Positions 1,155 to 39,786 are shown, counted from the stretch's first letter. The stretch is DNA of 64,000 nt from a virus (IMGVR_UViG_2806310702_000003:1-64000), one strand, 5' to 3'. Notes: generated by a model not told the origin, from the sequence alone. Program-made: numbers and translations.

Positions 1155-1867
1155 TATTTTTCAACCTCCTCAATATAAACAAGCCCATTTTCTACTCCCC
1201 ATTTATATTTTTTATTATTTTTAGTATCTTTAATTGTATTAGCTTCTTTCTTAAATTCTTCATATTGCGAAGTAAGATTTTCTTTAAATTTTTCTAAATT
1301 AGTACCATCTTTTGCTTTAATATCTTCTGCTTTTAGCTCTATTGCACCTGTTTTGTTATTTACAGATTGTACAGGAACTTTAATATTTCCTATTTGTTTT
1401 TCTACATTTTTAATATCTTCTTTAGTTGCAATCGTTACTGAAGGATCTAGTTTTAAAGTTACACTTTCAGTATTAGATACCTGAACAATTAATTTAATGT
1501 TTAAATCTCTGCCACTACCAGTGGAAAGTAAAGGTTTATATGTTTCTGGATATTTAGAAATTATTAATAAATTATCTTCATCATCAAAGATTCCAACTTC
1601 TCTAATAGAAAAACCACCAACGGATGCAGGTATTAATGTCTGTATAATAATCCAATTTTTATTTTTAGAATCTGTAGTAATGCTATTAATAGTTCCTTCC
1701 CATACTTTATGTTTTAAATCCTCCTGATTTTCTATAGGATTATAATAAGTACCGTTACTATCTCCTACTTTAATTTTTGCAAAATTAACCTTTGTTCCAA
1801 GTGCTGTTGCATTAGCTAATTTCGCTTGGCCTATTTTTGTTAATAGCGTATAGAATTGCTCTGCCAT
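1154..1867 (-). CDS. Phage tail fibre (tail-collar/DUF3751-type N-terminus)
   Basis: FYTLLTKIGQAKLANA...GGFSIREVGIFD...YPETYKP and VQSVNNKTGAIEL motifs. Confidence 0.85.
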   Translation of the reverse strand: MAEQFYTLLTKIGQAKLANATALGTKVNFAKIKVGDSNGTYYNPIENQEDLKHKVWEGTINSITTDSKNKNWIIIQTLIPASVGGFSIREVGIFDDEDNLLIISKYPETYKPLLSTGSGRDLNIKLIVQVSNTESVTLKLDPSVTIATKEDIKNVEKQIGNIKVPVQSVNNKTGAIELKAEDIKAKDGTNLEKFKENLTSQYEEFKKEANTIKDTKNNKKYKWGVENGLVYIEEVEK

Positions 1868-2488
1868 TTAAGAATTAACCCCCTTTGGATATATAGTAGT
1901 TTGTTCAAAGTCTATTCCATTTCCTAAACCAATGTTTAAATTTGTATTTATTTCTATAGCCTTTGGTGTATATGGATAAATAGTTGTTGTTTCTGCACTT
2001 AATAAAGTTGTGCCTAGGTACAAGTTACTATTTGTTGTAGAAATTAAATTATATGTTGCTTCTAAGTGTGCAGGTTGTATCTCTTCAATTATGTTATACA
2101 GACTATTTAAAGAATACGAAAAACCTTTATTAATACTCTCTAAAGCTAATGAAAAATAAGATTCTTTATTATGTTCTGTTACTCTTACCTTATCTGCATA
2201 AGCTTGCGCAATTTCTTCTATAACTTTTTTAGTTGTAGTACCTTGCCCTCTGAGTTTTGCTAGAATATTTGCTCTACGTTCCTCAATACTTTTACTTGTA
2301 TCTGTAGTAATACTTACAAATTCTTCCCACCAACTTAATCCCCAAGTGGCAGTTTTTACAAAGCATTGTGCTTTTAAATCCTTAACATCTAAATTTAATT
2401 TATCAATTTCCTTTTGCTGAGTACTATAGATGTTTTGCATTTCTTTAATATTAGATATAAAAAAAGGTACATAGTTTTTAAGTAACAC
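1868..2488 (-). CDS. Baseplate wedge protein (XkdU/DUF2313-like)
   Basis: TATWGLSWWE...ERRANILAKLRGQGTTT...IQPAHL motifs. Confidence 0.85.
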   Translation of the reverse strand: MLLKNYVPFFISNIKEMQNIYSTQQKEIDKLNLDVKDLKAQCFVKTATWGLSWWEEFVSITTDTSKSIEERRANILAKLRGQGTTTKKVIEEIAQAYADKVRVTEHNKESYFSLALESINKGFSYSLNSLYNIIEEIQPAHLEATYNLISTTNSNLYLGTTLLSAETTTIYPYTPKAIEINTNLNIGLGNGIDFEQTTIYPKGVNS

Positions 2489-3548
2489 TATCTACCACCA
2501 CCTCGATGTTTTTCAAAATTGCTATACTATCTTTTTCAAGCTTAATATCTTTAGTATTGCTATTTATTTTTAACTCTGTAAAGTCTGTAACTTTACCTAC
2601 ATTAAGTACACAATTAACTATACGATTGTATCTAACTGTATCAGTATTCAAGCTAATATTTTTCAAATAATCTTGTATATTAGTTTGTATATCTTTTTTA
2701 ATTTCTTCAAGATCACTTTTATTTGCAATTACTTTAATACTAATATTTAATCCAATTTCAGTTATACCTGAAACTGTAACATCTGCTCCAATTGGTCTAA
2801 CTTCCTCGATATGTTTCTTAACATTATTAATTATTTCGTTAGAAGGTGCTTTACCATTACTATCTACAATTACAACTTTTACTGTACCTCTACCTTGCCA
2901 ACGTGGAATTACAATAGCATTACCAACTCCACTTGTTTCCATAGCCCACAATTTATATTCATTTTTGTTGCCACTTGTTGCAGGCGTTCTAACTTTTAAT
3001 ATTAATCTATTATAAAGTTGCTCATCAGTCTCGGTATCTCTACCATTTTCAACATTATTTAAATTTTCAATTTTTGAGATTCCTATTAATTGTATTGGGA
3101 GTTGATTTATTTCTTTAGCTTTTACATTATATTTTGTACCTTCTTCCATAGCAATTACAGGAATAATTGTTGTTCCATTATCTTTTATAGTATCTTCTTT
3201 AGTAGTTTTAAATATAACTCCCAAAGATGTTTGTATTAAAGTACCTTCTTCAATTTTAGTACCTTTAGCACCATAAAAAGTTACATTAGTTGTTGCATGT
3301 TCCCCAAGTTTTCTAAAGACTCCATGCTCCTCGCATCTTAACTCTAGCTCTTCGGAATATCCATTTTCTAATGCAGTTTTAGCAAATACAGCATCTAAGC
3401 AATCATCTAAATCTTCTCTAGTATCTTCAAGTTCATAAGCAGCAGGTGCTAAAGCATCATGTATTAGTGTACCTTCACATTTATATACATCTGTTTCTAA
3501 ATAACTAAGCATTCGATTTAATATATCTTTACTATCTTCACTATACAT
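2478..3548 (-). CDS. Baseplate J-like protein (XkdT-like)
   Basis: GRDTETDEQL, TPATSGNKNEYKLWA, GRGTVKV, RPIGADVTV motifs. Confidence 0.9.
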   Translation of the reverse strand: MYSEDSKDILNRMLSYLETDVYKCEGTLIHDALAPAAYELEDTREDLDDCLDAVFAKTALENGYSEELELRCEEHGVFRKLGEHATTNVTFYGAKGTKIEEGTLIQTSLGVIFKTTKEDTIKDNGTTIIPVIAMEEGTKYNVKAKEINQLPIQLIGISKIENLNNVENGRDTETDEQLYNRLILKVRTPATSGNKNEYKLWAMETSGVGNAIVIPRWQGRGTVKVVIVDSNGKAPSNEIINNVKKHIEEVRPIGADVTVSGITEIGLNISIKVIANKSDLEEIKKDIQTNIQDYLKNISLNTDTVRYNRIVNCVLNVGKVTDFTELKINSNTKDIKLEKDSIAILKNIEVVVDSVT

Positions 3549-3978
3549 TTACCTCAACCCCTTTATTATAAATTGTATTTACTTTTATACTAGTTAATAG
3601 AGTATCTTTGTTAAAGTCTAAATTAAAGTTTTCTATACTAAGAATATATTTATTAACTAATAAGCATTCACTCAACATTCTATACATTTCAGATTCTATA
3701 AACTCTCTAGTAAATTGTTTGCCTATTAGCAATTCTTCAAAGTCATTTCCGTAGTTTCTAGAGTAGATTTTGAATTTATCTCTTTTTACATGTATTGCTT
3801 TCCAAATCCACACCTTTATAGCTTCATCTTTTTCTACAATAATATTTTCACCTAACTCATTTGTTAGTAAAGTTTCATTTTCAAAATCTATAGCATATTC
3901 TTTAAAAGTTTCTAATTCTCCAATATCATTAGTAACATCTATTTCATCATTTAAAATATTATCTGGAAATATACTCAA
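3541..3978 (-). CDS. Baseplate protein XkdS/DUF2634-like (start reassigned to TTG 3978)
   Basis: EAIKVWIWKAI...IYSRNYG motif; GGTGG RBS before TTG 3978, in frame with the track ORF. Confidence 0.8.
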   Translation of the reverse strand: MSIFPDNILNDEIDVTNDIGELETFKEYAIDFENETLLTNELGENIIVEKDEAIKVWIWKAIHVKRDKFKIYSRNYGNDFEELLIGKQFTREFIESEMYRMLSECLLVNKYILSIENFNLDFNKDTLLTSIKVNTIYNKGVEVNV

Positions 3979-3980
3979 TA

Positions 3981-4307
3981 CTACACCACCTTTGCAAGTA
4001 CAATATAAGTTTGTAAATCTGCAGTCGGTAATACAGCAACAGTATCTCCAGTTCTTAATATCGTTTCTAATGTGCATTTTTCTTTTGTAATACTTGTATT
4101 ATTTATAGTAATTTCTTTATCATGTTGTAATAAGTCTACATTTACTTTTAAATTATATTTTTCTAAGAGTAAATCTCCAACTTTAATTTTTAAAGAATTT
4201 GCATTTAAAACAGTCCCTAATTGTATAGGTGGAGGATTATTTTTTTCACCTGCTTCCTCCATAGCTTTCACTAGACTAATAAAAGGATCTTGTTTCATAT
4301 ATATCAC
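3981..4307 (-). CDS. XkdR/DUF2577-like baseplate spike protein
   Basis: IQLGTV...LRTGDTVAVLP...YIVLAKV; position in module. Confidence 0.75.
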   Translation of the reverse strand: MIYMKQDPFISLVKAMEEAGEKNNPPPIQLGTVLNANSLKIKVGDLLLEKYNLKVNVDLLQHDKEITINNTSITKEKCTLETILRTGDTVAVLPTADLQTYIVLAKVV

Positions 4308-5524
4308 CTTCTTTTAGATTTCTTTTTAGGTGTAACTTTTTTCTTCTTAGATTTTTCTTTGCTTTTCTTAGCCTTTTGTTTCTTCTTAGCTTCTGCTTTA
4401 GCTTTTCTTTCAGCACGTTTATTTTCTCTTATTACTTTTTTCTTTTCTCTTTCTTGTTTCTTTTCTTCTTTTATAGCTTTCTTTTCTTGCTTAGTATCAA
4501 ATTTCTGTGTATCGTCAGATTCTTTAGCGTCCATCTTACATACAAAACTTAATGTTAATTCTGTAGTATATTCTCCTGTTTGTATATCCCACGTATGAGT
4601 GTCTGCTATAATATGCATTTTTGCATTACTCAAAATATCTACATAAGGAATTTGAGTGTGTACTGCATAACCTGTTCTATAATCCCAATTACCTAATACT
4701 TTACATTCAACTTCTTTGTCCACTCCATGCAGTTTATTTTTAGCTACAACATTAGCATCTTTATCTTTTTCTTTTACATAGTTATCTTGTAAAATTCCAT
4801 AATAAGCAATTTCGCCATTAGTTTGCACTTTAGATATATAGTTATTGTTCTCATCATAGATTTTAACTTTATTTACCATGTTACCCATACTGTCTTTATA
4901 ACTAAAACTAATCAAATTGCCGTCACATACAGTTGCATTTGGATCACTTGCAGGTTTAATAATTGTATTACTTAATATTCCACCCATTTCTCCTACATTA
5001 ACTTTAATACCATCCATATATATAAAATATTGCTTTCCTGTTTGTTTACTTACTTGTGTGTAAAGTTCCATAATTGCATCGTATACTTTTTTTTGTGCTA
5101 GTAAATATCTTAGCTTTATATTACTAGTTGCAATAATTCCTGCTTCAACTCCAATTTCACTTAAAATATCTCTAGTAGCACTATCAGCTGTAATATTATT
5201 ATAATTTTTAGTTATAGTATTTTTATTTAGATAGTAAGCATAATCAAAAGCTGTAAACTCTAAAGTATCTTCACTTGTTAATGTTCTGTCTATCACAACA
5301 CCTCGGAATATTTCTTTATTGTTTAAAGTAATCCAAACTTTTGTACCTGCTCCTATTTGCATTTTCCCAAGTAGAATATTATTTTTCCTATCAGTAATAC
5401 TATAATAAATACTACAAGATAATTGTCTAGATACACTGGTCAAACTATTGCTCAAAGATACGCTTTTACATAAGTCTGTTATTTCATGAACGATATTATC
5501 ATAAGACTTTAAAATTCTTATCAT
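4304..5524 (-). CDS. XkdQ-like baseplate hub protein with Lys-rich C-terminal tail
   Basis: IFRGVVIDR...TAFDYAYYL motif, position; ~65 aa K/E/R-rich tail. Confidence 0.8.
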   Translation of the reverse strand: MIRILKSYDNIVHEITDLCKSVSLSNSLTSVSRQLSCSIYYSITDRKNNILLGKMQIGAGTKVWITLNNKEIFRGVVIDRTLTSEDTLEFTAFDYAYYLNKNTITKNYNNITADSATRDILSEIGVEAGIIATSNIKLRYLLAQKKVYDAIMELYTQVSKQTGKQYFIYMDGIKVNVGEMGGILSNTIIKPASDPNATVCDGNLISFSYKDSMGNMVNKVKIYDENNNYISKVQTNGEIAYYGILQDNYVKEKDKDANVVAKNKLHGVDKEVECKVLGNWDYRTGYAVHTQIPYVDILSNAKMHIIADTHTWDIQTGEYTTELTLSFVCKMDAKESDDTQKFDTKQEKKAIKEEKKQEREKKKVIRENKRAERKAKAEAKKKQKAKKSKEKSKKKKVTPKKKSKRR

Positions 5525-5958
5525 ATTCTGATCTCACACCCTTTTAAAGAACGCCACTCTTTAAAGCTTATTGTAAAATAAACATCTCTTGTACCATCTT
5601 GCTCTCCCCAAGAGAATTCCTCTATTGTACATTGCATATTTAACTTTGTTCCTGTTACGACACACCTGCATACTTCTTTACTAGTTCTTGCTTTTTCTAG
5701 TATATCTACATACCAATAAGGTTCAAATGGTGTATACTGTAAAAAGCTATAATCTTGCTTTGGAAAAAAACTACTAAAGCTCCAACTTTGTAAAGATTTA
5801 TTACCCATTACAGGCAATTCTCCAAAATTCATTATATTTACTGTTTTATTCATGTTTCCTGCTGCAACTTCAAATTCAGCAGGAGCTACAGGAAGTTGAA
5901 ATATCTCTCCCCCTGCTTTAATCCAAAACTGCATATCTGGGAAAACGTGTTGTTGCAT
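5521..5958 (-). CDS. XkdP-like tail tube initiator (no LysM domain)
   Basis: QLPVAP...FSSFFP...IEEFSWGEQDGTRDVYFTISFKEWR. Confidence 0.8.
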   Translation of the reverse strand: MQQHVFPDMQFWIKAGGEIFQLPVAPAEFEVAAGNMNKTVNIMNFGELPVMGNKSLQSWSFSSFFPKQDYSFLQYTPFEPYWYVDILEKARTSKEVCRCVVTGTKLNMQCTIEEFSWGEQDGTRDVYFTISFKEWRSLKGCEIRI

Positions 5959-6005
5959 TTAAAATACCTCCAAATAATAAAGATACTATAGAATCTATAG
6001 TATCT

Positions 6006-8693
6006 TTAAGTCATATTTAATTGTGCTATTTTAATTTTTCGCACTAATGCATTTGCAATTTTATCTATATCGCTTTCTTCTCTAACATGTACATCACCAA
6101 AAGTTATTGTTATGTTGCCATTATTTCCAATTAATTTATTAGTATCTTTATTGTCAAAAACTTTACTACCTTTAGGCATTTGTACTATTTCTGGACCATG
6201 CTCTCCAACTACAGAAAATCCTCCACCCCAATAGCTAGTACCTAAAGCATTTTTACCAGATATTTTATCTCCAACCCATTCTGCACCTTTTTTAACTAAG
6301 TTAACTGTACCAGTAATAGGATGTTTTAAGAACTCCTGTAAATTATTCCACCATTCTCGGATTTTATCTATTACTGCTTTTGTTTTTTCTTGTATTCCGC
6401 CCCAATTTTCTTTCCATGCTGTATATAATCCTATAACTGCTGCTACAAGTAATCCTATCCCTATAATTAACCAGCCAATAGGACTTGCACTAAATGCTGC
6501 ATTTAAAGCCCATTGTGCTACAGTTAAAGCTTTAGTAACTCCTGTTAATGCTATACTTGCAACTTTATGTGCTATTAAAACTATAGTATGTGCAGCTACA
6601 ATAGCCTTTTGAAATAACCAAGCAATTGTTTGTGCAGTTATAGCAGCTACTGTTTTCCAACCTGCTGCTGCATAGCTTATTATAGCAATTATTAATTTAC
6701 CTGTTATTATTGCTGCAGTTTTTGCAGCTTGAGCTCCTGTTTTAATTATAGCCACTATAAATGTTGCTGTTAATTTAGCACCTGAAATAGTTGCTTGAAT
6801 ACCTGTTTTTATAATAGCTCCAATAAAACTTGCTGTTAATTTAACACCACTTATAACTGCTTGAGCTCCTGTTTTAATTATAGCTACTATAAAATGTCCT
6901 GTGATTTTAGCTCCAGCAATAACTGCATGAGTCCCTGTTTTGATTAATGCTGGTCCAAAAATAACTCCTAATACTTTAGCAACTTTTTTTATAGTTGGTT
7001 CAGCTTTTTTTAGGGATTCTTTAAATTGTTTAATTTTCTTTTTAACTTCTTCAAATGCTTTTTTTACTTTATCTAAAGCATTATTTTTTAAATTAACAAA
7101 TGCCTTTTTTACTTTATTAGTAAATTCACAGATTTGTTTCCAATGTGTTATTAACACTGCTGCAACAACTGCGATAGCCAGTAAGCTTAATACTACTAAA
7201 TGTCCTGGACTGCTTAACCATGCTAAAACTCCGCCAGCATTTCTAATAGTATTTGTTAGCTTGTTTATACTTGTAATAGTATTGCTTATGCTTTTTCCAA
7301 TTTTACTAACTCCTAAAAGAATAGGACCTATTATAACTAGCCACTTTCCTACATTAGCTATTATTTTTTGTTGTGCTGGTGTTAAATTGTTTAATTTATT
7401 TGCTAAAGAGCTTATGCAACTTGTTATATTTTCTAAAGTCGGTGTTAATGCTGCACCCAGACTTATTAAAACATTATGCATTTTATTTAATGCTTTTCTA
7501 AATTTTTCTCCTGGAGTTTCCATTTTATCAACTGCATCTTGTAATGCTGTTGTATTATTTTTCATTTGCTCCATAGATTCATTATATTTTTTCATTCCTG
7601 TGTCACTTGTTAGCATTAATATCGTGTTTAATCCTTCAACACTTCCAAACATAGTAGCCATAGCACTTACATCGCTATCACCTGTTTTTGCAAGTAGTTC
7701 CATATCTTTAAGAAGACCTTTGTTTGACTTTTTTAGATTTTTATACATTTCTGTATTTTTCTTTCCTTGCTGTTCTAATTTAAACATTTCGGAACTATTT
7801 TTAGAATAATTTTTAGACATTTGATCTAGTGCAGGACTAGTTTTTCTTAATTTATCAGCTAAATCTTTTAAAAATGGCATCCAACCTTTTGTATGTATCT
7901 CACTAGATTTAAATTTTATTCCTAATATATCAGCTGCATCGGCTGCTTCTTTGGAAGGTTTTATTATGTTAGATAGTGCAGCTTTTAGTCCAGTAACAGA
8001 TTCAGCAGTATCTAATCCCTGTGCAGTGGTTACTGCCATACTACTAAATAGTTCTTCTGTTTTCATTTTTAATGCACTAGCGATAGGTGTAACTTTACCC
8101 ATACTTTTAGCTAATTCTCCAAATGTTGTTTTACCTAAATTTTGCGTTATAAGCATTTGATTTGCTATTTTATTAGCCTTATCTGCTTCATAGCCATAAG
8201 CATTTAAAACATTAGTAAGACCATTTACACTAGTTGCAGTATCAGTAAAACCACCTTTAGCAGCCTTTGTTGCTACCCCTAAAAATTCTGTTACCTTTGC
8301 AGTATCTACTGAAGCTGACAATGCTTGATATTCAGCTTCTGCTAATTCAGTTGCACTTAATCCAGTCTGATTTGATAGTTCTAAAATTCCTTTTTGTAAG
8401 TTATCCATAGATACTTTAGTAGTATCCGCTATGGTACTTACTTTTGCCATTTTGTCTCCAAATTCTACACTTGATTTTACAGCTAAAGTCCCTAAGCCAA
8501 CTAATGGCACAGTTAAACTTTTAGTCAAAGTACTTCCAAGTTTTTCAGTACTTTTAGAAACCTTTTTTATATCTTGTGAAACATATCTTGTTTGTCTTTG
8601 AAAATTAGATAGATTTTGTGTAACATGTCTTAGTTGTCCTGAAAATTGATCACGTAATTGCAATATCGCATCTATAACATGTGCAATAAACAT
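6006..8693 (-). CDS. Tape measure protein A
   Basis: 895 aa helical; TP901-type core; 22-aa repeats; C-terminal NALGT...VGEHGPE. Confidence 0.95.
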   Translation of the reverse strand: MFIAHVIDAILQLRDQFSGQLRHVTQNLSNFQRQTRYVSQDIKKVSKSTEKLGSTLTKSLTVPLVGLGTLAVKSSVEFGDKMAKVSTIADTTKVSMDNLQKGILELSNQTGLSATELAEAEYQALSASVDTAKVTEFLGVATKAAKGGFTDTATSVNGLTNVLNAYGYEADKANKIANQMLITQNLGKTTFGELAKSMGKVTPIASALKMKTEELFSSMAVTTAQGLDTAESVTGLKAALSNIIKPSKEAADAADILGIKFKSSEIHTKGWMPFLKDLADKLRKTSPALDQMSKNYSKNSSEMFKLEQQGKKNTEMYKNLKKSNKGLLKDMELLAKTGDSDVSAMATMFGSVEGLNTILMLTSDTGMKKYNESMEQMKNNTTALQDAVDKMETPGEKFRKALNKMHNVLISLGAALTPTLENITSCISSLANKLNNLTPAQQKIIANVGKWLVIIGPILLGVSKIGKSISNTITSINKLTNTIRNAGGVLAWLSSPGHLVVLSLLAIAVVAAVLITHWKQICEFTNKVKKAFVNLKNNALDKVKKAFEEVKKKIKQFKESLKKAEPTIKKVAKVLGVIFGPALIKTGTHAVIAGAKITGHFIVAIIKTGAQAVISGVKLTASFIGAIIKTGIQATISGAKLTATFIVAIIKTGAQAAKTAAIITGKLIIAIISYAAAGWKTVAAITAQTIAWLFQKAIVAAHTIVLIAHKVASIALTGVTKALTVAQWALNAAFSASPIGWLIIGIGLLVAAVIGLYTAWKENWGGIQEKTKAVIDKIREWWNNLQEFLKHPITGTVNLVKKGAEWVGDKISGKNALGTSYWGGGFSVVGEHGPEIVQMPKGSKVFDNKDTNKLIGNNGNITITFGDVHVREESDIDKIANALVRKIKIAQLNMT
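6724..6941 (-). repeat. 66-bp (22-aa) imperfect tandem repeats in TMP A
   Basis: IKTG(A/I/T)(Q/H)A recurs four times at 22-aa spacing. Confidence 0.8.
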
Positions 8694-8753
8694 TACCTCC
8701 TTTCTTTTAAAATAAAAAAAGACATCTATTACTAGACATCTTTTTCATTTAAA

Positions 8754-9119
8754 TTATTCGCTTATATTTATATCTAAAACTCTATATTTACTTAAATCTT
8801 TAGTAAATTCCAATTTTACAATAAAGTTATTCCTTAGTTTTGCTCCAAAACTATTTTCAGCATCTACATAACCAGATACATTATAAACTACCATATCTTT
8901 ATTTGTACTATTTGTTTCCTTTATATTATATTCGTTAAAGTCCCATGGGAAACTTGCCGTGTTAGGACATTTTAGTTTTTGTTTAACAACTGATTGAGTA
9001 ATTGTAACTATATTAGCTGTTATATCCTCTTTATTATCTGTCTCGTTACTTTCTCCACTACATCCAATTAAAAGAATTGTAAATATACAAATCAATAATA
9101 TACTTAAAATTTTTTTCAT
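8754..9119 (-). CDS. Moron-like lipoprotein
   Basis: MKKILSILLICIFTILLIGC signal/lipobox from ATG 9119; -10-like TATAAT upstream, terminator 8716-8744. Confidence 0.75.
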   Translation of the reverse strand: MKKILSILLICIFTILLIGCSGESNETDNKEDITANIVTITQSVVKQKLKCPNTASFPWDFNEYNIKETNSTNKDMVVYNVSGYVDAENSFGAKLRNNFIVKLEFTKDLSKYRVLDINISE

Positions 9120-9138
9120 ATAATACACCCCTAGTATA

Positions 9139-9303
9139 TTATATACCATTATTTTCTTCTCTTCTATCTTTGATTTCTTGATTTACAAAAGCATGTAGTA
9201 TTTTTTTTTCTCCTTGCTTCATCATATAAAAAGAAGATGGTGTAATGTTTTTATGTTTAAATAAATAATACATCAAACTTACTTCACCATCTTCTTTTAT
9301 TAG
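9139..9303 (-). CDS. Tail chaperone -1 frameshift extension (gpGT-like)
   Basis: A AAA AAC at 9303-9309 just before the TAC stop; -1 frame open for 54 aa (LIKEDGEVSLMYYLFKHK...). Confidence 0.75.
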   Translation of the reverse strand, partial: LIKEDGEVSLMYYLFKHKNITPSSFYMMKQGEKKILHAFVNQEIKDRREENNGI

Positions 9304-9704
9304 TTTTTTATTTCTTCTTCATCATCTTCTTTTTCATATCCATTTAATTCATTTATAACATTGTATAATTCATCTACCTCACCAGGAAGTAATAACAAAT
9401 TTAAAAGATCTTTAAAAGAAGGTAATTTATAATGCTTTAATAATTCAACATTTTTAAATACTTCTGGACATCCTTCTATTACTGTGTTTGCTCGCATATC
9501 TCCAGTTTTTAATTCTTTTAATTCACCTTTTTTATTTAAATCTAGCATTTCACTTTGTATTTCAGACATTTTCTCATTGTTTACTGCTTTGCATTGAAAA
9601 ATAAACTCTTGTCCACCCAATTTTCCTAATTTTAATTTAACTTCTTTTGTAGGTGCTTTTATTGCTCCCATATCTAATGCTAATAATCTTTCTACTGTAT
9701 TCAT
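9300..9704 (-). CDS. Tail assembly chaperone (XkdN-like)
   Basis: LLLPGEVDELYNVINELNGY...EEEIKN; between tube and TMP. Confidence 0.85.
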   Translation of the reverse strand: MNTVERLLALDMGAIKAPTKEVKLKLGKLGGQEFIFQCKAVNNEKMSEIQSEMLDLNKKGELKELKTGDMRANTVIEGCPEVFKNVELLKHYKLPSFKDLLNLLLLPGEVDELYNVINELNGYEKEDDEEEIKN

Positions 9705-9726
9705 TTATAAATTCCTCCTATTTATT

Positions 9727-10158: not shown

Positions 10159-10171
10159 TTAATCACTCCTT

Positions 10172-11233: not shown

Positions 11234-11237
11234 ATCA

Positions 11238-29912: not shown

Positions 29913-30150
29913 TATTATAAATCTATTAGGAAAATATCAAGCACACATTTTATAAAAACTTAATATTATAATTATTATAAATCTATCAGAAAGCTATCAT
30001 ATTTATACTTGGAATTAGTTATAAATATGATACAAACTTTATTTTAATAGAAAAACAATGAAAATATATTAGAAATATGTTGAATAAGTAGCATAAAAAA
30101 TATATACTATAAGTATTATTAGAATAAAAATAGTTTTCTAATAGAAATAT
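29913..30150 (+). repeat. parC-like repeats upstream of parM
   Basis: TATTATAAATCTAT at 29913 and 29973 (60-bp spacing) plus degenerate TATTAGAA/AATAGAAA copies. Confidence 0.5.
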
Positions 30151-30170
30151 ATTAAATTGGGGGAAGTAAT

Positions 30171-31094: not shown

Positions 31095-31102
31095 GTGATA
31101 TT

Positions 31103-31402
31103 ATGAAAAAAAGTATAAGTTTTAATTTAGAAGAAGATATTATAGAAAAGATAGAGCAATATCAAAAAGAAAAAAGGCTAAGTTCCAGAAGTGCTGCTCT
31201 TGAAAGAATAATTTTATCTATGGATCATATTAATATTAATAACATGTTAGAGATTTTCAAAAATACATTACAAAATAATAATATAGATACACAAGTAAAA
31301 AAAGAAGATGTAATAGTAGAAGAACCTTTAAAAGAAGAAATAAAAAACAACAAAATAGAAAATAGTGTAAATGATATATTTAGTAGTATGCCCCAAGATT
31401 AA
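31103..31402 (+). CDS. ParR-like RHH adaptor
   Basis: KKSISFNL...SRSAALERII RHH, directly after parM. Confidence 0.8.
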   Translation: MKKSISFNLEEDIIEKIEQYQKEKRLSSRSAALERIILSMDHININNMLEIFKNTLQNNNIDTQVKKEDVIVEEPLKEEIKNNKIENSVNDIFSSMPQD

Positions 31403-31504
31403 CTTGGGGTTTTGTTTTGAAAAAGTATAGGTATTTGATAATTTTAACTAGTTTATTTATATGTAAAAAAATGCTCTGGAGTATATTCCAGAGCATTCAA
31501 AATA

Positions 31505-33859: not shown

Positions 33860-33860
33860 A

Positions 33861-34139
33861 TTACACCTCCATAAAACTTGCTATTGCTTGTATTAATGCG
33901 TATCCAGTAATACTAATAGGTATTAACTTTCTTCCTTTTTTGCTACCACACATATATAAAAAGATTGAACCAAAACATATTACCAAAGCTATGTTGTAAG
34001 AAGCTCCTGCACCTTTTAAAAATAAGACCTTACAACCTTTAATTGGATGAAACATATAATAAAATCCATTTACAAGTGTATCTAAACTATTTTTTATTTG
34101 ATTTAAAGTTTCTAACACATAAACTCCTCCCTTAAGCAA
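33861..34139 (-). CDS. Small membrane protein
   Basis: Two hydrophobic segments; operon with the ATPase. Confidence 0.6.
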   Translation of the reverse strand: MLKGGVYVLETLNQIKNSLDTLVNGFYYMFHPIKGCKVLFLKGAGASYNIALVICFGSIFLYMCGSKKGRKLIPISITGYALIQAIASFMEV

Positions 34140-34542
34140 ATATATCCTTTATAATATCGAGAATCCAAGGCAATAGGTAAAGACTACTAAAAGCCAAAGC
34201 GTATTTTGTAATTATTTTAGCAATACTTTTTGTATCTCCTTGAAGCAATTCTTTTATAATGCTAGTAATACACATAATAATACAAGTCCAGTAACCAATA
34301 GTTCTACAAATTCCCAAAATAGTATTTCCAGCTTGATCTATTTTTGCAACGCTAGCAGTTGATTTTGCTAATGCATTCTTGCAATATAACATATTTGCTA
34401 ATACGAAAATACTTAGCTTTTTTAATTTTGAATTATTATTAATTTCTTTTGCTATTAGCTCCAAATTATTTAATTTCTTTTGTTCCTTTCTATCTTTTAA
34501 ATTCTGTAAAAAACTAGAATGGTAAACACAAATTATCTGCAT
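34132..34542 (-). CDS. Pilin-like (VirB2/TrbC-like) membrane protein, start ATG 34542
   Basis: AAGGAGG RBS; ALA cleavage-like site followed by two TM helices. Confidence 0.5.
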   Translation of the reverse strand: MQIICVYHSSFLQNLKDRKEQKKLNNLELIAKEINNNSKLKKLSIFVLANMLYCKNALAKSTASVAKIDQAGNTILGICRTIGYWTCIIMCITSIIKELLQGDTKSIAKIITKYALAFSSLYLLPWILDIIKDIFA

Positions 34543-34600
34543 AAAAACCTCCTTATTGTAAATAATAAAAATAAATTGATTCGGAAACGAGGGATATAAA

Positions 34601-34684
34601 ATGGATGTATTTTTTGCAATTACATTATTCATGGGTGGTATTCAAGTTGGAGCAGAAACAGTTTGTAAATTTTTAGGAATGTAA
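34601..34684 (+). CDS. 27-aa hydrophobic peptide
   Basis: MDVFFAITLFMGGIQVGAETVCKFLGM, RBS GAGGG, terminator 34801-34834. Confidence 0.5.
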   Translation: MDVFFAITLFMGGIQVGAETVCKFLGM

Positions 34685-34875
34685 ACAATATGTTAATAAT
34701 TACAAAGTAAGTCGCAAAAGAGTAAACTTTTAGAAAGTTATAACATACGCTAGGAGTATACGAGGAAGCGTAGCAAGGAGTAACTCATAGCTTTCCTAGG
34801 CAAAGCCTAACCATTAATGGAAGGCTTTGTTTTTATATATTTTTGATTAATGTTGGAGCAATTTTTATATAAAAT

Positions 34876-35028
34876 TTACTCCTTATTTTCTTTTTGCTTT
34901 TTTAAATACTTTATATAGTATTCTATTGCATTTTTAATAAAGTTACTTTTTTCTTCCTGCCCCTGTACTTCTAAATATAAATTCATATCTCTAGTAGTTT
35001 GTTTAAAGCTAACAGGTATTTTAGGCAT
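34876..35028 (-). CDS. 50-aa RHH-like DNA-binding protein (not in ORF track)
   Basis: MPKIPVSFKQ...KSNFIKNAIEYY; RBS AAGGAGG. Confidence 0.7.
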   Translation of the reverse strand: MPKIPVSFKQTTRDMNLYLEVQGQEEKSNFIKNAIEYYIKYLKKQKENKE

Positions 35029-35271
35029 ATATTTTAATACCTCCTTACATCTTATTTAATACTAATGTATACAAAAAGGGTTCAAATTGTTACTAATTTC
35101 ATTGACAAATTAAATAAAAATATTTAATATTTATATATAATTAACTATGTGGTATGTAAATTATGTTTATTATTATATTTACAATGAACTTTTATATTAA
35201 CTATGTGAGAAGTTATTTTCTATAAAAAAAACAAGGATACCTAAAATATAGTATCCTTAAAAATTATTATT

Positions 35272-36420
35272 TTAAATAAGTTTTATATAATCTGCGCTTA
35301 CATATCCTCCGTGTGATCCATAATAAATTTCATACCAATTTCCAACCTTTTTAAAAATCTTAACAGTATCATTTTTATTTAAAATTCCTAAAATATTATT
35401 ATTAGTTGTAGTGTCCATAGCACTTCTTATTCTTACTCCGTTTCCTGTGCAAGAACCTATGCGGCTATCTAAAGAACCACTAGAGTTATTGCTAGTTGTT
35501 GTAGCTTTACCATTTTTGAAATTATTTAATGGGAAATACTTCCCTGGGCAATTAGAACTTCCAACCTCTCTATGTCCATATATACCCATGTTTCCATATT
35601 TATTTTTGAGATAAGATATTAATTGTAATCCAGCATTAAATTGTGTATCAGGCATGCTTTTATCCGTATTATGATAATCACCCTCGAATGCAATACCAAT
35701 AGAATTTTTATTAAATCCCTTGCAGTGTGAACCTAGTGTCCACTCTGGTCTACCTCTATAAATAGAACCGTCTTTCCTAATATAAAAATGATAGCCTATA
35801 CCTACCCAGCCATTTCCTAAATGTAATTGATGTAGCCTTTCTATGTTCCAGCCAGTACATTCAGTATGATGTAGTACAATATTTCTCGGACTATTATTGT
35901 TAGGTAATCCATTTCTAAAATTTAAATTTGTATCTATAATATTCATAAAATTACTTCCCTTCATATCATATTGATTTAAATTATAATAGTTTATTAATTT
36001 TAAAATCTTATCTATATAATTAGGATCACTTGTATATCCTCCATTAAAAATTGCTTGTATTTGCTCCTTATAGTCTTTAGCCGTAAAAACACTTGCTTCT
36101 ACATACCATTTCTTTTTCAAAAACAAAGCATGATCAAGTATACTTTCTGACCAACTATTATAAATCCTAAAAGGTTGTTTAACAGTAATTATTCCACTGC
36201 GTGTGTATTCTCTAGTATCTATATTAGCAATAGGTCCACTCCAATCTCTTAACGCTTTAATTCCAAAAAGGTTATTATATTTTTTAGCTAAGACACTTGA
36301 ACCCCAGCCACTCTCTAATATTGCTTGTGCTATAGATACACTAGCAAATATTTTATATTTAATTTGTGTATCTATAGCACTATCTTTTATTTTATTTATA
36401 AATTCTAGCTGTTCACACAT
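35272..36420 (-). CDS. Endolysin: glucosaminidase + amidase_2 + SH3
   Basis: AQAILESGWG/NNLFGIK; VLHHT, GIGYHF, SIGI, GHRE..CPG; SH3 GYVSADYI. Confidence 0.93.
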   Translation of the reverse strand: MCEQLEFINKIKDSAIDTQIKYKIFASVSIAQAILESGWGSSVLAKKYNNLFGIKALRDWSGPIANIDTREYTRSGIITVKQPFRIYNSWSESILDHALFLKKKWYVEASVFTAKDYKEQIQAIFNGGYTSDPNYIDKILKLINYYNLNQYDMKGSNFMNIIDTNLNFRNGLPNNNSPRNIVLHHTECTGWNIERLHQLHLGNGWVGIGYHFYIRKDGSIYRGRPEWTLGSHCKGFNKNSIGIAFEGDYHNTDKSMPDTQFNAGLQLISYLKNKYGNMGIYGHREVGSSNCPGKYFPLNNFKNGKATTTSNNSSGSLDSRIGSCTGNGVRIRSAMDTTTNNNILGILNKNDTVKIFKKVGNWYEIYYGSHGGYVSADYIKLI

Positions 36421-36437
36421 ACATTACTCCTTTGAAT

Positions 36438-36695
36438 TTATTTTTTATTTGTACTTTGTTTTACAAGTTGATTAGCATAAACAGTTACACCTGTTACTAA
36501 AACACCTTGAATAATAGCACTTGCATTAAAGCCCATCAATGCAGTAGCCCCAATAACCCCAAATATAAGAAGCAGCCATGGTATTACCCAATCTTTAATT
36601 TTTTCTGTTGATTTAAGCATTATACCTAGTATGTATAAAACAGGTATTAGTATAAAAGATTGTTGTACTATGTAATTCATAATATTTACTTCCAA
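36438..36695 (-). CDS. Phage holin
   Basis: LIPVLYILG..LK...IIQGVLVTG..VYANQL. Confidence 0.85.
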   Translation of the reverse strand: MEVNIMNYIVQQSFILIPVLYILGIMLKSTEKIKDWVIPWLLLIFGVIGATALMGFNASAIIQGVLVTGVTVYANQLVKQSTNKK

Positions 36696-36705
36696 AATAT
36701 CACCT

Positions 36706-36927
36706 CTATTTTATTTTTTCTTTAATATCCTCAACATCTTTTTTTATTTCCTCAACCACATTGAATTTATCAGTTAATTTTCTTATGATGCCTTGATAGT
36801 TTTCCTCTCTTTGTTCTTGCTTAGCATCTCTTTTCTCTTGCGCTCTTAAAATATAAAATATTAAAGCTACACTAAGCGCTGCCCATACACCTTGTGATGA
36901 TGCAAGTTTTAAGATCTCATTATCCAT
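36706..36927 (-). CDS. BhlA/UviB-family holin-like protein
   Basis: SQGVWAALSVALIFYIL...REENYQ. Confidence 0.88.
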   Translation of the reverse strand: MDNEILKLASSQGVWAALSVALIFYILRAQEKRDAKQEQREENYQGIIRKLTDKFNVVEEIKKDVEDIKEKIK

Positions 36928-37069
36928 TCGTCACCTCCATATTTTTGTATTGAACGAAATTAGTTGTTATTTAAATTATATCATTTTTAGAAAAAACATA
37001 AGATAATTGGTAATTCACACTAGAATTTCTCTATAAATATGATAATATAATTAATAGGAGGGATAGATT

Positions 37070-37675
37070 ATGGAAATTAAATCTAAAGAAAATTTAAAGG
37101 GAAAAAAGGTTTATGGGAAAATATGGTTTATAGTGCTTATGTTAATTTTTTTCTTCCCAGTTGGAATATATTTAATGTATAAATATAAAAAGTTTTCATC
37201 TAAAACAAGAGGATGTATTGTTACTATTATAGTTATACTAGGTATAATAGGGGTGTTTACAGAAGATAAACAAAAGGTATTTGATAAAGAATCTAAGCAA
37301 ATAACGCAAGAATATAAAGAAGAAACTGGAGAAGAAGATATTCAAGATTGGCAAAAAAATATATCTCTTTATGGAAATATATTATCTAAAAAATTTAATA
37401 GTTTTAGTGATGCAGCAAATAAACTTGATATTGAAAAAATGAATGTCTATTCAAAAAGTATAGTTGAATACTCTTATAAGTTAAAAGAAGTAAAATTACC
37501 AGTTGAATATAGAAATGCTAAAAATAAAATAAATGAAGCTTGTGATATATACATTGAAATATATGGAGAAATGCCAAAGAAATGCATGGATATAGAATGG
37601 GTTAATAAAAGTGAACCTAGATTAAATAAAGCAAATGATTTAATTAGAGAAGCTTCAAAAGAGTTTAAAAGCTAG
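37070..37675 (+). CDS. Moron membrane protein
   Basis: WFIVLMLIFFFPVGIYLM TM motif; own promoter and terminator 37669-37696. Confidence 0.7.
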   Translation: MEIKSKENLKGKKVYGKIWFIVLMLIFFFPVGIYLMYKYKKFSSKTRGCIVTIIVILGIIGVFTEDKQKVFDKESKQITQEYKEETGEEDIQDWQKNISLYGNILSKKFNSFSDAANKLDIEKMNVYSKSIVEYSYKLKEVKLPVEYRNAKNKINEACDIYIEIYGEMPKKCMDIEWVNKSEPRLNKANDLIREASKEFKS

Positions 37676-37752
37676 TAGAAATTAATCTACTAGCTTATTT
37701 TTATGTATTAATTGTTTTATTGTTTACTTCGTAATATTTTTCTATTACGCAA

Positions 37753-37887
37753 TTAATCTTCTGTGTATTCTTGTCCTGTTATCTTTTTGAATTCTTCTTT
37801 AGTTATACAATTCCACTTACACGCTTCTTTCACTAATTCAAATTTTAACATTCCTTGTTTATAAAAAACATTATAAAAATCAAACAT
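37753..37887 (-). CDS. XkdX-family protein (not in ORF track)
   Basis: MFDFYNVFYKQG...ITKEEFKKITGQEY, 44 aa. Confidence 0.85.
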   Translation of the reverse strand: MFDFYNVFYKQGMLKFELVKEACKWNCITKEEFKKITGQEYTED

Positions 37888-38306
37888 TATTTAACACCTT
37901 CCTTAATTTTATTTATTTCTATATTCATTGTTGCTACTGTACTAGCTAATTGAGTAGCTAACATATCTTTTTTCTTACTGTCTATAGTAAGTTTTGCTAT
38001 CGTTTCTGTTAAAACTTCATTATTTTTCTTTAAATTTTCTAATTCTATTTCTTGTAGTTCTTCTTTTGTTTTTGGAATATATTTATATTCATAGAAAATT
38101 TCTTTTTTGATAGGATTCCAATACATTATTGGTTGTTTACACTCTATTTGTTTAGATTTCGGAATACTTTCTATAAGTACACCTTCTTGTTCTAATTGCT
38201 CTTTTGATTTATTCAATCCATTTTCTTTATCAAATGGTATATAATGTATAAACCCTATGCTATATTTTTCATCTGTTATTTTATTTAAATTACCTAAAAA
38301 TATCAT
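37887..38306 (-). CDS. Tail-fibre assembly-like protein
   Basis: FIHYIPFD..NGL.KS.EQLEQEG; position after fibre. Confidence 0.65.
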   Translation of the reverse strand: MIFLGNLNKITDEKYSIGFIHYIPFDKENGLNKSKEQLEQEGVLIESIPKSKQIECKQPIMYWNPIKKEIFYEYKYIPKTKEELQEIELENLKKNNEVLTETIAKLTIDSKKKDMLATQLASTVATMNIEINKIKEGVK

Positions 38307-38316
38307 TTCATCACCT

Positions 38317-39786
38317 CTATATTTCTATTTCACATTTGTATTTGTTTAAAACCTGTCTATGATATGACCCTGCTGTTTCATATTCTAGTCTATATATATA
38401 CCCATCATTAGATATATCCCAATTTATCGTAGTATAATCCTCTGGATAAGAACTACTATAAGTAAAATTGCCTAGAGAAATACTTAAATTAGAATTTACG
38501 ATATAAACTATTTCATTTTTATTTAAATTTAATCTATTATTTTTATGTTTTTTATCTATATATCCATATTCACCTTCGTGATTAGATTTTAAATTAAAAT
38601 CTTTATCGAAAATATAAGTGTAAAAAGTAGAATCACTTGTACTTCCAGTTGAAAACAGACCAATTGCACATATATAGTTATCATTTACATTTATTTTTTG
38701 AAGATAAATACTACTTCTATCATCAATATTTGTTTTTACAGTTTTTTGGAGTGTGCCATCTATGCTATATATATCAATTTCGTTACTATAATATTTTATA
38801 TAATACGCTAGATTATCATATACATCTAAAAATGTATAATTCTTTTCATTTTTAAATTTTTTTATATATTTATCAGCTTTTAAATCATATATGGATTTCG
38901 TAGTAAACAAAGTATCATTTTTAGAAATACTAGGTGACTCACCTGCAACACAACATAAAAATTTTAAAGTATCTTTATTAAAAACAAAGCAATAATCTTC
39001 TCTGTTCACCTCCCCTTCTACGACTAAATATTTATTGAATTGAGAAATTGTACCTAATTTAGATCCGCTATCAACACATTCAGTTTTTATTGTTTGAAAA
39101 TCATTTGCGGATACTATATTTATATAATTAGAATTAGTCGTTGTATAAATTTTAGAACTATCTGTGTTATCACATGAAAAACTTGCTAGATGTTCAACTT
39201 TATCGTATAAAGATGAAATTTTTTTTATATCTACTTTAGGGTTTAAAGTGTTTAAATTTGCAAAATTATATATTTTTTTTGTTTCTACTGTTTCTATACC
39301 GTTTTTCAATTCTTCAAAGCTTGCTATGTCTTTACTTTTAGAAACTTTTCCACCTCTGTCAATAATGGTTGTTTCTAAAAGTTTTTTTCCATTACTGACA
39401 TAGGTAAAATTTTCCTTAATATCTTTCTTAAAATCTTCATATTGCGAATTAACTTCTTGCTTAAAATCTTTAATTTCTTGTGTAGTTTTTCTTTCTAAAT
39501 TTGTAATTTTACTATCTGTATCCTTCTTATTTTCTTCGAGTGTAGCTTTAGTGTTATTTTTAAATTCTTCAATTTCTTGTGTGTTTTTTATTTTTAATGT
39601 TTCTATATCTTTGCTATTTTGAAAAATCCCTTCCTCGAGGTGATTAAGATTTTCAGCGTTGAGGTTCGATCCTTCTTCTTTAACGCCTGTATTATCTTTT
39701 TCTATAATTGTCGGTTTACCATCAACTAAATAAGTAGTTGGCTTTGTATCTATTCTATCTTTAAAATTTATTTTTTTATAAACCAC
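38317..39786 (-). CDS. Tail fibre/receptor-binding protein B
   Basis: GSNLNAENLNHLEEGI anchor, coiled coil, VSNGKK motif, beta-rich C-terminus. Confidence 0.75.
   Translation of the reverse strand: MVYKKINFKDRIDTKPTTYLVDGKPTIIEKDNTGVKEEGSNLNAENLNHLEEGIFQNSKDIETLKIKNTQEIEEFKNNTKATLEENKKDTDSKITNLERKTTQEIKDFKQEVNSQYEDFKKDIKENFTYVSNGKKLLETTIIDRGGKVSKSKDIASFEELKNGIETVETKKIYNFANLNTLNPKVDIKKISSLYDKVEHLASFSCDNTDSSKIYTTTNSNYINIVSANDFQTIKTECVDSGSKLGTISQFNKYLVVEGEVNREDYCFVFNKDTLKFLCCVAGESPSISKNDTLFTTKSIYDLKADKYIKKFKNEKNYTFLDVYDNLAYYIKYYSNEIDIYSIDGTLQKTVKTNIDDRSSIYLQKINVNDNYICAIGLFSTGSTSDSTFYTYIFDKDFNLKSNHEGEYGYIDKKHKNNRLNLNKNEIVYIVNSNLSISLGNFTYSSSYPEDYTTINWDISNDGYIYRLEYETAGSYHRQVLNKYKCEIEI

What the first reader, a model, noticed from the sequence alone, without database searches (positions are those of the whole stretch)
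1245..39448. 27-bp direct repeat inside both tail-fibre genes brackets a complete-looking 38.2-kb phage-plasmid
Seen: TCTTTCTTAAA(T/A)TCTTCATATTGCGAA occurs at 1245-1271 and 39422-39448 (26/27 identical), in the same reading frame (SQYEEFKK / SQYEDFKK). In both otherwise unrelated fibre genes it marks the switch from the anchoring N-terminus to the variable C-terminus. Inference: a crossover would excise a 38,177-bp circle in canonical order (lysis, ATPase, par, rep, repressor, early genes, terminase, head, tail). Its fibre would join the A N-terminus to the long B receptor domain, and module B would be left with the short A tip. One phage may therefore integrate into the fibre gene of another, so that integration and excision swap host-range modules.
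Basis: partly seen in the sequence, partly recalled or inferred. Interest (0 to 1): 0.85.

Follow-up and report, generated by a model that had tools for sequence, protein, structure and literature searches.

The report
Tail-fibre tip swapping joint, Clostridium phage-plasmids
The 27-base repeat is a real, conserved recombination joint at which related Clostridium phage-plasmids exchange the receptor-binding ends of their tail fibres, but the 38 kb between its two copies is made of parts of two phages, not one inserted phage.

Summary
The repeat is real: 1245-1271 and 39422-39448 match 26/27, in frame (SQYEEFKK/SQYEDFKK), and 0 of 100 shuffles reproduce it. It marks a module boundary. 12 of 13 related fibre proteins carry QYE there, with 2 upstream stalk types and at least 7 downstream tips. 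Two natural recombinants exist. Another protein is fibre A residues 1-203 plus a third tip. The reciprocal A-N/B-C hybrid was not found. The "38.2-kb phage-plasmid" is not a natural unit. The window is part of an 89,378-bp contig holding two collinear phage-plasmids. A complete C. novyi phage record (G001) joins DnaD/DnaC (contig 74.3-76.4 kb) directly to the early genes at 26.4-20 kb. The A-type phage therefore runs across a 503-bp perfect methyltransferase repeat, not across the fibre repeat. Best reading: the 27-mer is the proximal joint of a swappable distal-fibre cassette, exchanged between co-resident phage-plasmids by short-homology recombination. This is a known kind of mechanism in a new setting. 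Read-level tests could not be run.

The parts
1245..1271 (-). Joint copy A: 27-nt conserved sequence encoding SQYEEFKKE (fibre A residues 199-207)
39422..39448 (-). Joint copy B: 27-nt conserved sequence encoding SQYEDFKKD (fibre B residues 113-121)
1157..1867 (-). Fibre A, 237 aa: tail-collar N-terminal domain (PF12571, residues 1-149), stalk, QYE joint, 34-aa tip
430..1154 (-). Rest of distal cassette A: 165-aa ORF (660-1154) and 76-aa ORF (430-657). No family assigned. Inferred to be receptor-binding or assembly partners of the short fibre A tip
   Evidence: function is inference from position
1..415 (-). 5' part of an ISCbo6-like IS607-family element (tnpA N-terminus 2-325). Its 3' end is the other end of the contig (89238-89378)
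38320..39786 (-). Fibre B, 489 aa: N-terminal anchor shared with 57-59-kb C. botulinum phage-plasmids, coiled stalk, QYE joint, 368-aa orphan C-terminal domain
37756..38306 (-). Rest of distal cassette B: 139-aa ORF (37890-38306) and 44-aa XkdX-family protein (37756-37887, PF09693)
37700..37794 (.). Candidate distal (right-hand) joint just downstream of XkdX: 75% over 95 bp, 90% over 40 bp, to contig 89012-89100, which lies just downstream of the other XkdX gene. Contains a hairpin kept by compensatory changes
26407..26909 (-). 503-bp perfect direct repeat (methyltransferase gene 26412-26879). The second copy is at contig 72933-73435, outside the window. Likely true junction between the two phage-plasmids
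1871..26395 (-). A-type phage: early genes, serine recombinase 20602-21210, 181-aa tyrosine recombinase 19038-19580, terminase, head, contractile tail, baseplate. Collinear with G001 at 74-97% DNA identity in blocks
26905..37672 (.). HNH, repressor (28109-28519 +), Rep (28597-29553), ParM-like (30171-31091 +), 784-aa protein, endolysin/holin/BhlA-like (35275-36927), 201-aa ORF (+).
39789..62843 (-). B-type structural module: baseplate, tape measure, sheath, connectors, capsid, protease, portal. Morons are inserted in it (sigma factor 54621-55868, nucleotidyltransferase, SSB)

Best explanation
The 27-mer is the proximal recombination joint of an exchangeable distal tail-fibre cassette in phage-plasmids of the Clostridium novyi / C. 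botulinum group III kind. Its invariant core is the 13 nt CGCAATATGAAGA, inside the codons for (S/T)QYE(D/E). Upstream of the joint lie the anchor and stalk, which fit the phage's own baseplate. Downstream lie the tip and its accessory genes: A has the tip, a 165-aa ORF, a 76-aa ORF and XkdX; B has a 368-aa domain, a 139-aa ORF and XkdX. The contig carries two collinear phage-plasmids. P1 holds the A structural genes and is collinear with G001. P2 holds the B structural genes plus Rep/ParM at 28-31 kb. They are joined at a 503-bp perfect methyltransferase repeat. Because both fibre genes keep the same short in-frame sequence at the domain boundary, recombination there yields functional fibres with a new tip. 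The recombination would run on short homology, possibly helped by the Erf/Gam genes of the B-type unit. Shown: the joint, its conservation, module shuffling among relatives, two near-isogenic natural recombinants, and P1 collinearity. Inferred: the enzyme, the second crossover near XkdX, and that the tips set host range.
For: Joint and significance. Module boundary: 12 of 13 fibre proteins examined carry QYE at the boundary, with 2 stalk types upstream and at least 7 different tips downstream. The same tip occurs behind both stalk types: the A tip in P0001 and P0015, and the DCVKK tip in P0006 and p6CSt. DNA level: 13 invariant nt in 4 of 4 fibre genes aligned, with a rare NCG codon. Natural recombinants: P0015 is fibre B 1-117 plus fibre A last 38, both 100%, overlapping at SQYE; P0009 is fibre A 1-203 at 100% plus another tip. 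The shared exact stretch at the crossover is only about 15 nt, too short for a k-mer assembly chimera. Cassette replacement: of 24 contig proteins looked up (exact sequence, or the Met-start form in the case of fibre B), four are on one contig only: fibre B, the 139-aa ORF, XkdX-44, and the 589-aa terminase A, for which a 552-aa form is listed on a contig of the same length. The flanking 201-aa ORF and 98-aa ORF are on 2 contigs; the 165-aa and 76-aa ORFs are on 3. P0015's contig is 34,882 bp. The path contig start, joint, B genes, then 127 nt into the exact methyltransferase repeat gives 34,881 bp (arithmetic). Natural units: G001 is rated 100% complete by CheckV. It matches contig 76390-74286 at 97%, and 463 bp further on it matches 26422-26043 at 97%. 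It then matches 25827-19987, the tail, and 6344-1246, ending at the joint. p6CSt shows the same linkage. Relatives with this layout are circular plasmids.
Against: No DNA context for P0015 could be fetched, so cassette replacement cannot be told from a 38,177-bp deletion by sequence. The reading of the contig counts is my own, and the tool does not say which contigs they are. The 165-aa and 76-aa ORFs also sit on a 177,653-bp contig that I cannot place. P2 as a unit rests only on distant synteny with pRSJ22_2 (27-80% aa identity across 27 matched minus-strand proteins; repressor 36%, Erf 33%). About 15 nt of exact identity is short for RecA-type recombination, and the enzyme is unknown. Whether the tips bind receptors is inferred from position, variability and a CBM domain (PF02018) in one relative's tip. 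No reads could be laid.
Confidence: 0.62

Rival explanations
1. A 38.2-kb phage-plasmid (1272-39448) is integrated into the fibre gene of a 51-kb phage-plasmid by crossover at the 27-mer. Excision restores a B-N/A-C fibre and releases a circle with an A-N/B-C fibre.
For: The B-N/A-C fibre exists (P0015). Its contig length (34,882) also fits a clean 38,177-bp deletion of this contig. The bracketed DNA holds a full gene set.
Against: The bracketed DNA is not one unit. G001 and p6CSt link the A early and structural genes to contig 74-80 kb, outside the bracket. The A-N/B-C fibre was not found: 0 of 3 hits in a search that covered 268-856 aa. The 139-aa ORF and XkdX-44, which the circle would carry, are on one contig only. 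P0015's contig ends 127 nt into the methyltransferase repeat, which suggests a second copy of that repeat is still present in that strain. There is no recombinase gene at the joint, no dyad symmetry and no inverted copy.
Confidence: 0.13
2. The tandem itself is an assembly path artefact. P1 (about 43 kb plus the IS) and P2 (46.5 kb) are separate circles sharing a 503-bp perfect repeat, and the assembler threaded both into one contig. The two 27-mers then sit on different replicons and bracket nothing. This is compatible with the joint being real.
For: 503 bp are 100% identical at 26407-26909 and 72933-73435. Swapping the exits of this repeat gives two units, each collinear with independent relatives. 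The contig breaks in an IS at both ends, as short-read assemblies do. The P0015 contig appears to break at this same repeat.
Against: The assembler did pass the repeat twice in the cointegrate order, which paired reads may have supported. Homologous recombination across 503 identical bp would in any case interconvert the two states in the cell. I had no reads to test this.
Confidence: 0.35
3. Site-specific switching of fibre ends by a phage recombinase, as with Gin/Cin invertases or a shufflon, with the 27-mer as the crossover site.
For: The site sits at the constant/variable boundary of fibre genes, as crossover sites do in those systems (recalled knowledge). The contig encodes a 203-aa serine recombinase (20602-21210; PF00239 and an HTH), a 181-aa tyrosine recombinase, and a 346-aa tyrosine integrase between fibre A's cassette and the lysis genes.
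Against: There is no inverted copy of the 27-mer (6 or fewer mismatches) or of its 16-nt core (2 or fewer mismatches) anywhere in the 89 kb. All fibre and tip genes point the same way. The recombinase genes are 18 kb away or across an IS. Best self-complementarity of the site is 10/16. The serine recombinase is conserved at 99% in G001, whose fibre has one tip only.
Confidence: 0.05
4. Chance, or convergent protein motif with no recombination.
For: Both regions are AT-rich and rich in K and E.
Against: 0 of 100 shuffles reproduce it. The rare TCG and AAG codons are shared. The 100%-identical flanks in P0015 and P0009 switch exactly there.
Confidence: 0.01

Closest known systems
Recombination between conserved motifs in the distal tail-fibre locus of T-even phages, which swaps adhesin specificity (Tetart, Desplats & Krisch 1998, J Mol Biol 282:543). 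I saw it only as reference 25 in the reference list of PMC10879196; the content is recalled.
   Same: Short conserved sequences inside otherwise diverged fibre genes act as crossover points. The product is an in-frame fibre with a new receptor-binding end. The exchange occurs between co-infecting or co-resident phages.
   Different: Here the elements are temperate phage-plasmids of Clostridium. There is a single joint with a 13-27-nt core, not repeated His-box or G-rich motifs. The swapped unit seems to include accessory genes up to XkdX. Near-isogenic natural recombinants are seen in databases, not in crosses.
Mosaic tail-fibre genes of P2, Mu, P1 and lambda-like phages (horizontal transfer of fibre segments; recalled, no paper read here)
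   Same: A constant N-terminal anchor is combined with interchangeable C-terminal parts and their assembly proteins.
   Different: In Mu, P1 and p15B the alternation is by invertase on inverted sites within one genome. Here the sites are direct, on two phage units, and no inverted copy exists.
Modular exchange among circular prophages and plasmids of C. novyi sensu lato (Skarin & Segerman 2014, PMC4177856; passages read)
   Same: The same host group. Circular prophages swap about 20-kb structural modules and keep segregation modules. IS elements and recombinases lie nearby.
   Different: That paper, in the passages I read, describes module-scale exchange and suggests integrase-mediated recombination. 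It has 0 occurrences of 'tail fiber'. The fibre joint and the tip cassette are a finer scale.
Phage-plasmid recombination and co-integration (Pfeifer & Rocha 2024, PMC10879196; abstract and three passages read)
   Same: Phage-plasmids exchange genes often, and co-integrates are acknowledged.
   Different: Their method excludes co-integrates by design. They give no fibre joint.

Membership tests
Fibre module-shuffling joint (recombination between conserved motifs) | Short conserved in-frame sequence at a domain boundary in otherwise dissimilar fibre genes | tested here: met
   26/27 nt. The proteins otherwise share only 18/47 locally. 13 nt are invariant in 4 of 4 genes.
Fibre module-shuffling joint (recombination between conserved motifs) | Relatives share one side of the motif but not the other, in several combinations | tested here: met
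   12 of 13 proteins carry QYE, with 2 upstream types and at least 7 downstream types. Two tips are found behind both stalk types.
Fibre module-shuffling joint (recombination between conserved motifs) | Recent recombinants whose two halves are near-identical to two parents | tested here: met
   P0015 (117 aa + 38 aa, both 100%) and P0009 (203 aa at 100% + another tip).
Fibre module-shuffling joint (recombination between conserved motifs) | Recombination at the motif and a change of host range shown experimentally | not testable with these tools
Site-specific prophage integration (attL/attR around one element) | The DNA between the repeats is one coherent element | tested here: not met
   G001 and p6CSt link the A genes to contig 74-80 kb, outside the bracket.
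Site-specific prophage integration (attL/attR around one element) | Integrase gene next to an att site | tested here: not met
   The nearest recombinase genes are at 19038-21210 (18 kb away) and at contig 87766-88803, across an IS.
Site-specific prophage integration (attL/attR around one element) | Both empty-site and excised-circle junctions exist | tested here: inconclusive
   B-N/A-C was found (P0015). A-N/B-C was not found in a protein search: 0 of 3 hits. No DNA-level test was possible.
Invertase or shufflon fibre switch | Inverted crossover sites flanking alternative tips in opposite orientation | tested here: not met
   No minus-strand copy in 89 kb. All genes are co-oriented.
Phage-plasmid | Complete tailed-phage gene set plus plasmid partition and replication genes | tested here: met
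   Two sets of terminase, portal, capsid, sheath, tape measure, baseplate, holin and endolysin. Two ParM-like proteins (phrog_691) and Rep/DnaD-like proteins.
Phage-plasmid | Extrachromosomal circular state | tested here: inconclusive
   No terminal overlap. Both contig ends lie in one IS607-type element in the same orientation, with about 1.47 kb of the IS missing. Relatives with the same layout are circular plasmids.

The most novel reading that the evidence does not exclude
The QYE joint, with a second joint just past XkdX, is the target of a dedicated phage-encoded activity such as Erf/Gam annealing or a nuclease nick. Co-resident phage-plasmids would then trade distal-fibre cassettes at high frequency. 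This would be a 'shufflon in trans' between replicons, diversifying host range within one lysogen. Cointegration and resolution between the two elements would be part of the cycle.
Probability: 0.12. Interest if true: 0.75.

Novelty: new member of a known kind. Interest (0 to 1): 0.42.

Why it matters
Phage-plasmids of the C. novyi / C. botulinum group III complex move traits between lineages, and which cells they can enter depends on their fibres. This locus shows, with near-isogenic natural recombinants, that two phage-plasmids sharing a cell can exchange the receptor-binding end of the fibre at a 13-27-nt joint. It gives a precise marker for tracking such swaps in genome surveys. It is also a caution: in tandem or co-assembled collinear phages, any shared repeat brackets a 'complete phage', so completeness alone says nothing about integration.

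Tried and rejected
1. Exact 27-mer in viral contigs: 0 matches.
2. Megablast of 1-20000 and 20001-45000 against phages: no match, and 2 short matches. Against plasmids: only partial matches.
3. Fibre B against phages by tblastn: no match. Fibre B in viral contigs: 0 relatives among 16 pattern matches.
4. B baseplate protein (271 aa) in genome contigs and viral contigs: 0 relatives.
5. DNA context of P0015: viral contigs gave 3 distant loci only. Genome contigs gave 0 of 128. Metagenome contigs gave 0 of 216. Plasmids gave 4 distant records.
7. Reads: 16 runs were listed, one holding 0.75 of the sampled words of 34000-41000. No run was laid. One search was one base too long. One search was stopped by a filter and still counted. 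So no read-level statement is made, in either direction.
8. My first idea, that the unit boundary lies at 37.7-37.9 kb as tandem prophages with att sites, was dropped. The 95-bp likeness there is better read as the distal cassette joint, and G001 collinearity puts the inter-phage junction at the methyltransferase repeat.
9. Circular closure by an ORF reading across the contig ends was rejected: the tnpA frame does not continue. Closure through a partly missing IS remains possible.
10. CP026602.1 (38.8-kb circular plasmid) shares the A tail and some early genes at 40-89% aa identity. It is too distant to fix boundaries.


Full report
OBSERVATION. Positions 1245-1271 and 39422-39448 match 26/27 in direct orientation, 38,177 bp apart. 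With up to three mismatches allowed on both strands, these are the only two sites in the window, and 0 of 100 dinucleotide-preserving shuffles gave two sites. Self-blastn extends the match to about 50 bp at 84%. Both copies lie in the coding frame of minus-strand genes. One is fibre A (1157-1867, 237 aa; residues 199-207, SQYEEFKKE). The other is fibre B (38320-39786, 489 aa; residues 113-121, SQYEDFKKD). Outside an 18/47 local match around this spot the two proteins are unrelated. Fibre A has the tail-collar N-terminal domain PF12571 and many PHROG tail-fibre hits. Fibre B has no PHROG hit at 1e-5, no Pfam hit above a family's cutoff, and no tblastn match in 50,697 phage records.

SETTING. 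The window is the first 64 kb of a single 89,378-bp virus record. PHROG scans of 51, 32 and 40 ORFs show two complete, collinear sets of genes, nearly all on the minus strand. Each set runs lysis, ParM-like partition, a 774/784-aa protein, repressor switch, replication and early genes, terminase, head, contractile tail, baseplate, fibre, small accessory ORFs, XkdX. No host genes are present. Circular plasmids and phages of C. botulinum and relatives have the same layout: p6CSt 55 kb, CWou-2020a 35 kb, CP026602.1 38.8 kb, pRSJ22_2 56.8 kb. These are therefore phage-plasmids of that kind. Names on protein hits point to C. novyi and C. botulinum C. Both contig ends fall in one ISCbo6-like IS607-family element, in the same orientation. 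Positions 1-415 match its 5' part and 89238-89378 match the stretch just past tnpB, with about 1.47 kb of the IS missing. This fits a circle of about 90.8 kb broken by a multicopy IS, or a segment between two IS copies. The tnpA frame does not read across the ends, and there is no terminal overlap.

THE JOINT IS A MODULE BOUNDARY. I collected 13 fibre proteins: the two of the window, L003/G001, p6CSt and nine database hits. Twelve carry QYE at the point where similarity switches. Upstream there are two stalk types...KTG..L.A.DI...DGT.LE.FK... and ...NLERKTTQEIKDFKQEV... Downstream there are at least seven unrelated tips, one of them with a carbohydrate-binding module (PF02018). The same tip is found behind both stalk types. 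At DNA level, four of four fibre genes aligned share an invariant 13-nt core, CGCAATATGAAGA. The codon before it is TCG or ACG, which are 2.3% of Ser codons and 5.6% of Thr codons in 59 ORFs of the contig. So the DNA itself, not just the peptide, is conserved. DNA similarity between the contig and G001 runs from 6344 down to 1246 and stops at the joint.

NATURAL RECOMBINANTS. A region search with the C-terminal part of fibre A returned P0015 (151 aa). Its first 117 residues are identical to fibre B and its last 38 are identical to fibre A, overlapping at SQYE. P0009 (from Logan assemblies, 222 aa) is identical to fibre A for 203 residues and then carries a different tip. The exact identity at the P0015 crossover is about 15 nt, too short to be a de Bruijn chimera. 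The reciprocal A-N/B-C fibre (about 575 aa) did not appear in a search that covered 268-856 aa. That search gave three hits, none with the B C-terminal domain.

THE 38.2 KB IS NOT ONE PHAGE. In two collinear units, every shared direct repeat brackets a full gene set. One search lists six collinear pairs: methyltransferase, endolysin, the 774/784-aa gene, a region near 34.7 kb, the XkdX-proximal region and the fibre joint. A seventh direct pair, the SSB genes, is not collinear. The strongest pair is a methyltransferase repeat that is 100% identical over 503 bp, at 26407-26909 and contig 72933-73435. G001 is a 52,765-bp C. novyi phage record rated 100% complete. It matches contig 76390-74286 (DnaD 98%, DnaC 99.6% aa) at 97% DNA identity. 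Then, 463 bp further on, it matches contig 26422-26043 at 97%, followed by 25827-19987, the tail genes and 6344-1246. Its lysis and 285-aa regions match contig 87.2-86.9 kb and 80.2-79.0 kb. p6CSt shows the same linkage: 97.5% to 76198-78292 and 99% to 26027-26421. So the A-type phage (P1) is contig 72.9-89.4 kb, plus the IS, plus 1-26.9 kb. The block 26.9-72.9 kb (P2, 46.5 kb) holds HNH, repressor, Rep, ParM, the 784-aa gene, the lysis genes at 35-37 kb, fibre B's cassette and all B structural and early genes. Distant synteny with pRSJ22_2 agrees with this: its repressor homologue sits next to Erf. P1 and P2 meet at the methyltransferase repeat. This is either a true cointegrate or an assembler's path through a figure-of-eight, and I could not test which.

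WHAT HAPPENED IN THE P0015 STRAIN. I looked up 24 proteins of the contig by exact sequence (fibre B through its Met-start form, P0017). Four are on one contig only: fibre B, the 139-aa ORF, XkdX-44, and the 589-aa terminase A, for which a 552-aa form is listed on a contig of the same length. Their neighbours, the 201-aa and 98-aa ORFs, and every other gene tested on both sides are on two contigs; the integrase was not in the collection with my start codon. The 165-aa and 76-aa ORFs and the A baseplate protein are on three. The three neighbouring single-contig genes are bounded on one side by the 27-mer. On the other side they are bounded by a 95-bp likeness (90% over 40 bp) just downstream of both XkdX genes, at 37700-37794 and 89012-89100. 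That likeness contains a hairpin kept by compensatory changes. The length 34,882 equals, to one base, the following path: contig start in the IS, through the 76-aa ORF, the 165-aa ORF and the A tip to the joint, then B-N through all B genes to 127 nt inside the exact methyltransferase repeat (1271 + 33,610 = 34,881). This fits a strain in which P2 has received P1's distal cassette in place of its own while P1 is still present. It is an inference from counts and lengths.

MECHANISM. Shown: a conserved in-frame DNA core at a domain boundary, combinatorial tips, two recent recombinants, and two co-resident or co-integrated phage-plasmids carrying different tips. Inferred: recombination on very short homology between the two fibre loci, with a second exchange near XkdX, moves the tip and its accessory genes. 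Only in-frame products at the domain boundary survive, which sharpens the apparent hot spot. P2's Erf-like annealing protein and Gam-like protein (contig 71.7-72.9 kb) are candidate catalysts. Site-specific inversion or integration is unlikely. The 89 kb holds no inverted copy and the site has weak dyad symmetry. The recombinase genes are far from the joint. The serine recombinase is 99% conserved in G001, which has a single tip.

COMPARISON AND VERDICT. This works like the exchange of adhesin modules at conserved motifs in T-even distal fibre genes, and like the mosaic fibres of P2/Mu/P1-type phages (recalled; the T-even paper was seen only in a reference list). It fits the module exchange already described for circular prophages of C. 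novyi sensu lato (passages of PMC4177856), at a finer scale. The text search of that paper for 'tail fiber' found 0 occurrences. My two literature searches were not designed to show absence from print. The integration/excision story and the 38.2-kb 'phage-plasmid' are not supported. It is a new, well-documented member of a known kind, of moderate interest.

Noticed in passing
window 26407-26909 and contig 72933-73435 (L001 12933-13435): A 503-bp perfect direct repeat covering a 156-aa DNA methyltransferase gene, with sharp edges. It is the same gene family found at about 87% in many C. botulinum and C. sporogenes plasmids and at 76% in a Fusobacterium phage. It looks like a mobile cassette and is the likely junction of the two phage-plasmids.
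   Followed up: partly
window 1-415 and contig 89238-89378: An ISCbo6-like IS607-family element is inserted between the 76-aa ORF and an XkdX gene. The contig breaks inside it at both ends.
   Followed up: yes
window 52843-53799: A block of small early-type genes, 80-86% identical to early genes of plasmid p6CSt, sits in the middle of the B structural operon. Next to it are a nucleotidyltransferase (53824-54567) and a 416-aa sigma factor (54621-55868). These look like morons, or a footprint of an earlier module exchange.
   Followed up: no
window 37722-37741 and contig 89034-89053: A 7-bp-stem hairpin just downstream of both XkdX genes is kept by compensatory base changes (CGTAATA/TATTACG versus GCATAAT/ATTATGC). 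Its function is unknown, and no T-run follows on either strand.
   Followed up: partly
window 63266-63301 versus 289-323: A 36-bp match (94%) to the start of the IS607 tnpA gene lies at the start of a 65-aa ORF between the B portal and terminase genes. No other part of the IS is found there. It may be a related MerR-type HTH gene or an IS remnant.
   Followed up: partly
window 6677-6940: Three to four tandem 66-bp units (70-81% alike) lie inside the A tape-measure gene.
   Followed up: no
window 19038-19580: A 181-aa tyrosine recombinase with the catalytic domain only (PF00589) is conserved at 53% in the 38.8-kb circular plasmid CP026602.1 and at 37% in CWou-2020a. So it is a real short recombinase of these phage-plasmids, perhaps for dimer resolution, and not a gene fragment.
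   Followed up: partly
window 31508-33859 and contig 80193-82514: Both units carry a 774-784-aa protein of PHROG 5156, with no Pfam hit and unknown function, between the partition genes and the lysogeny switch.
   Followed up: no
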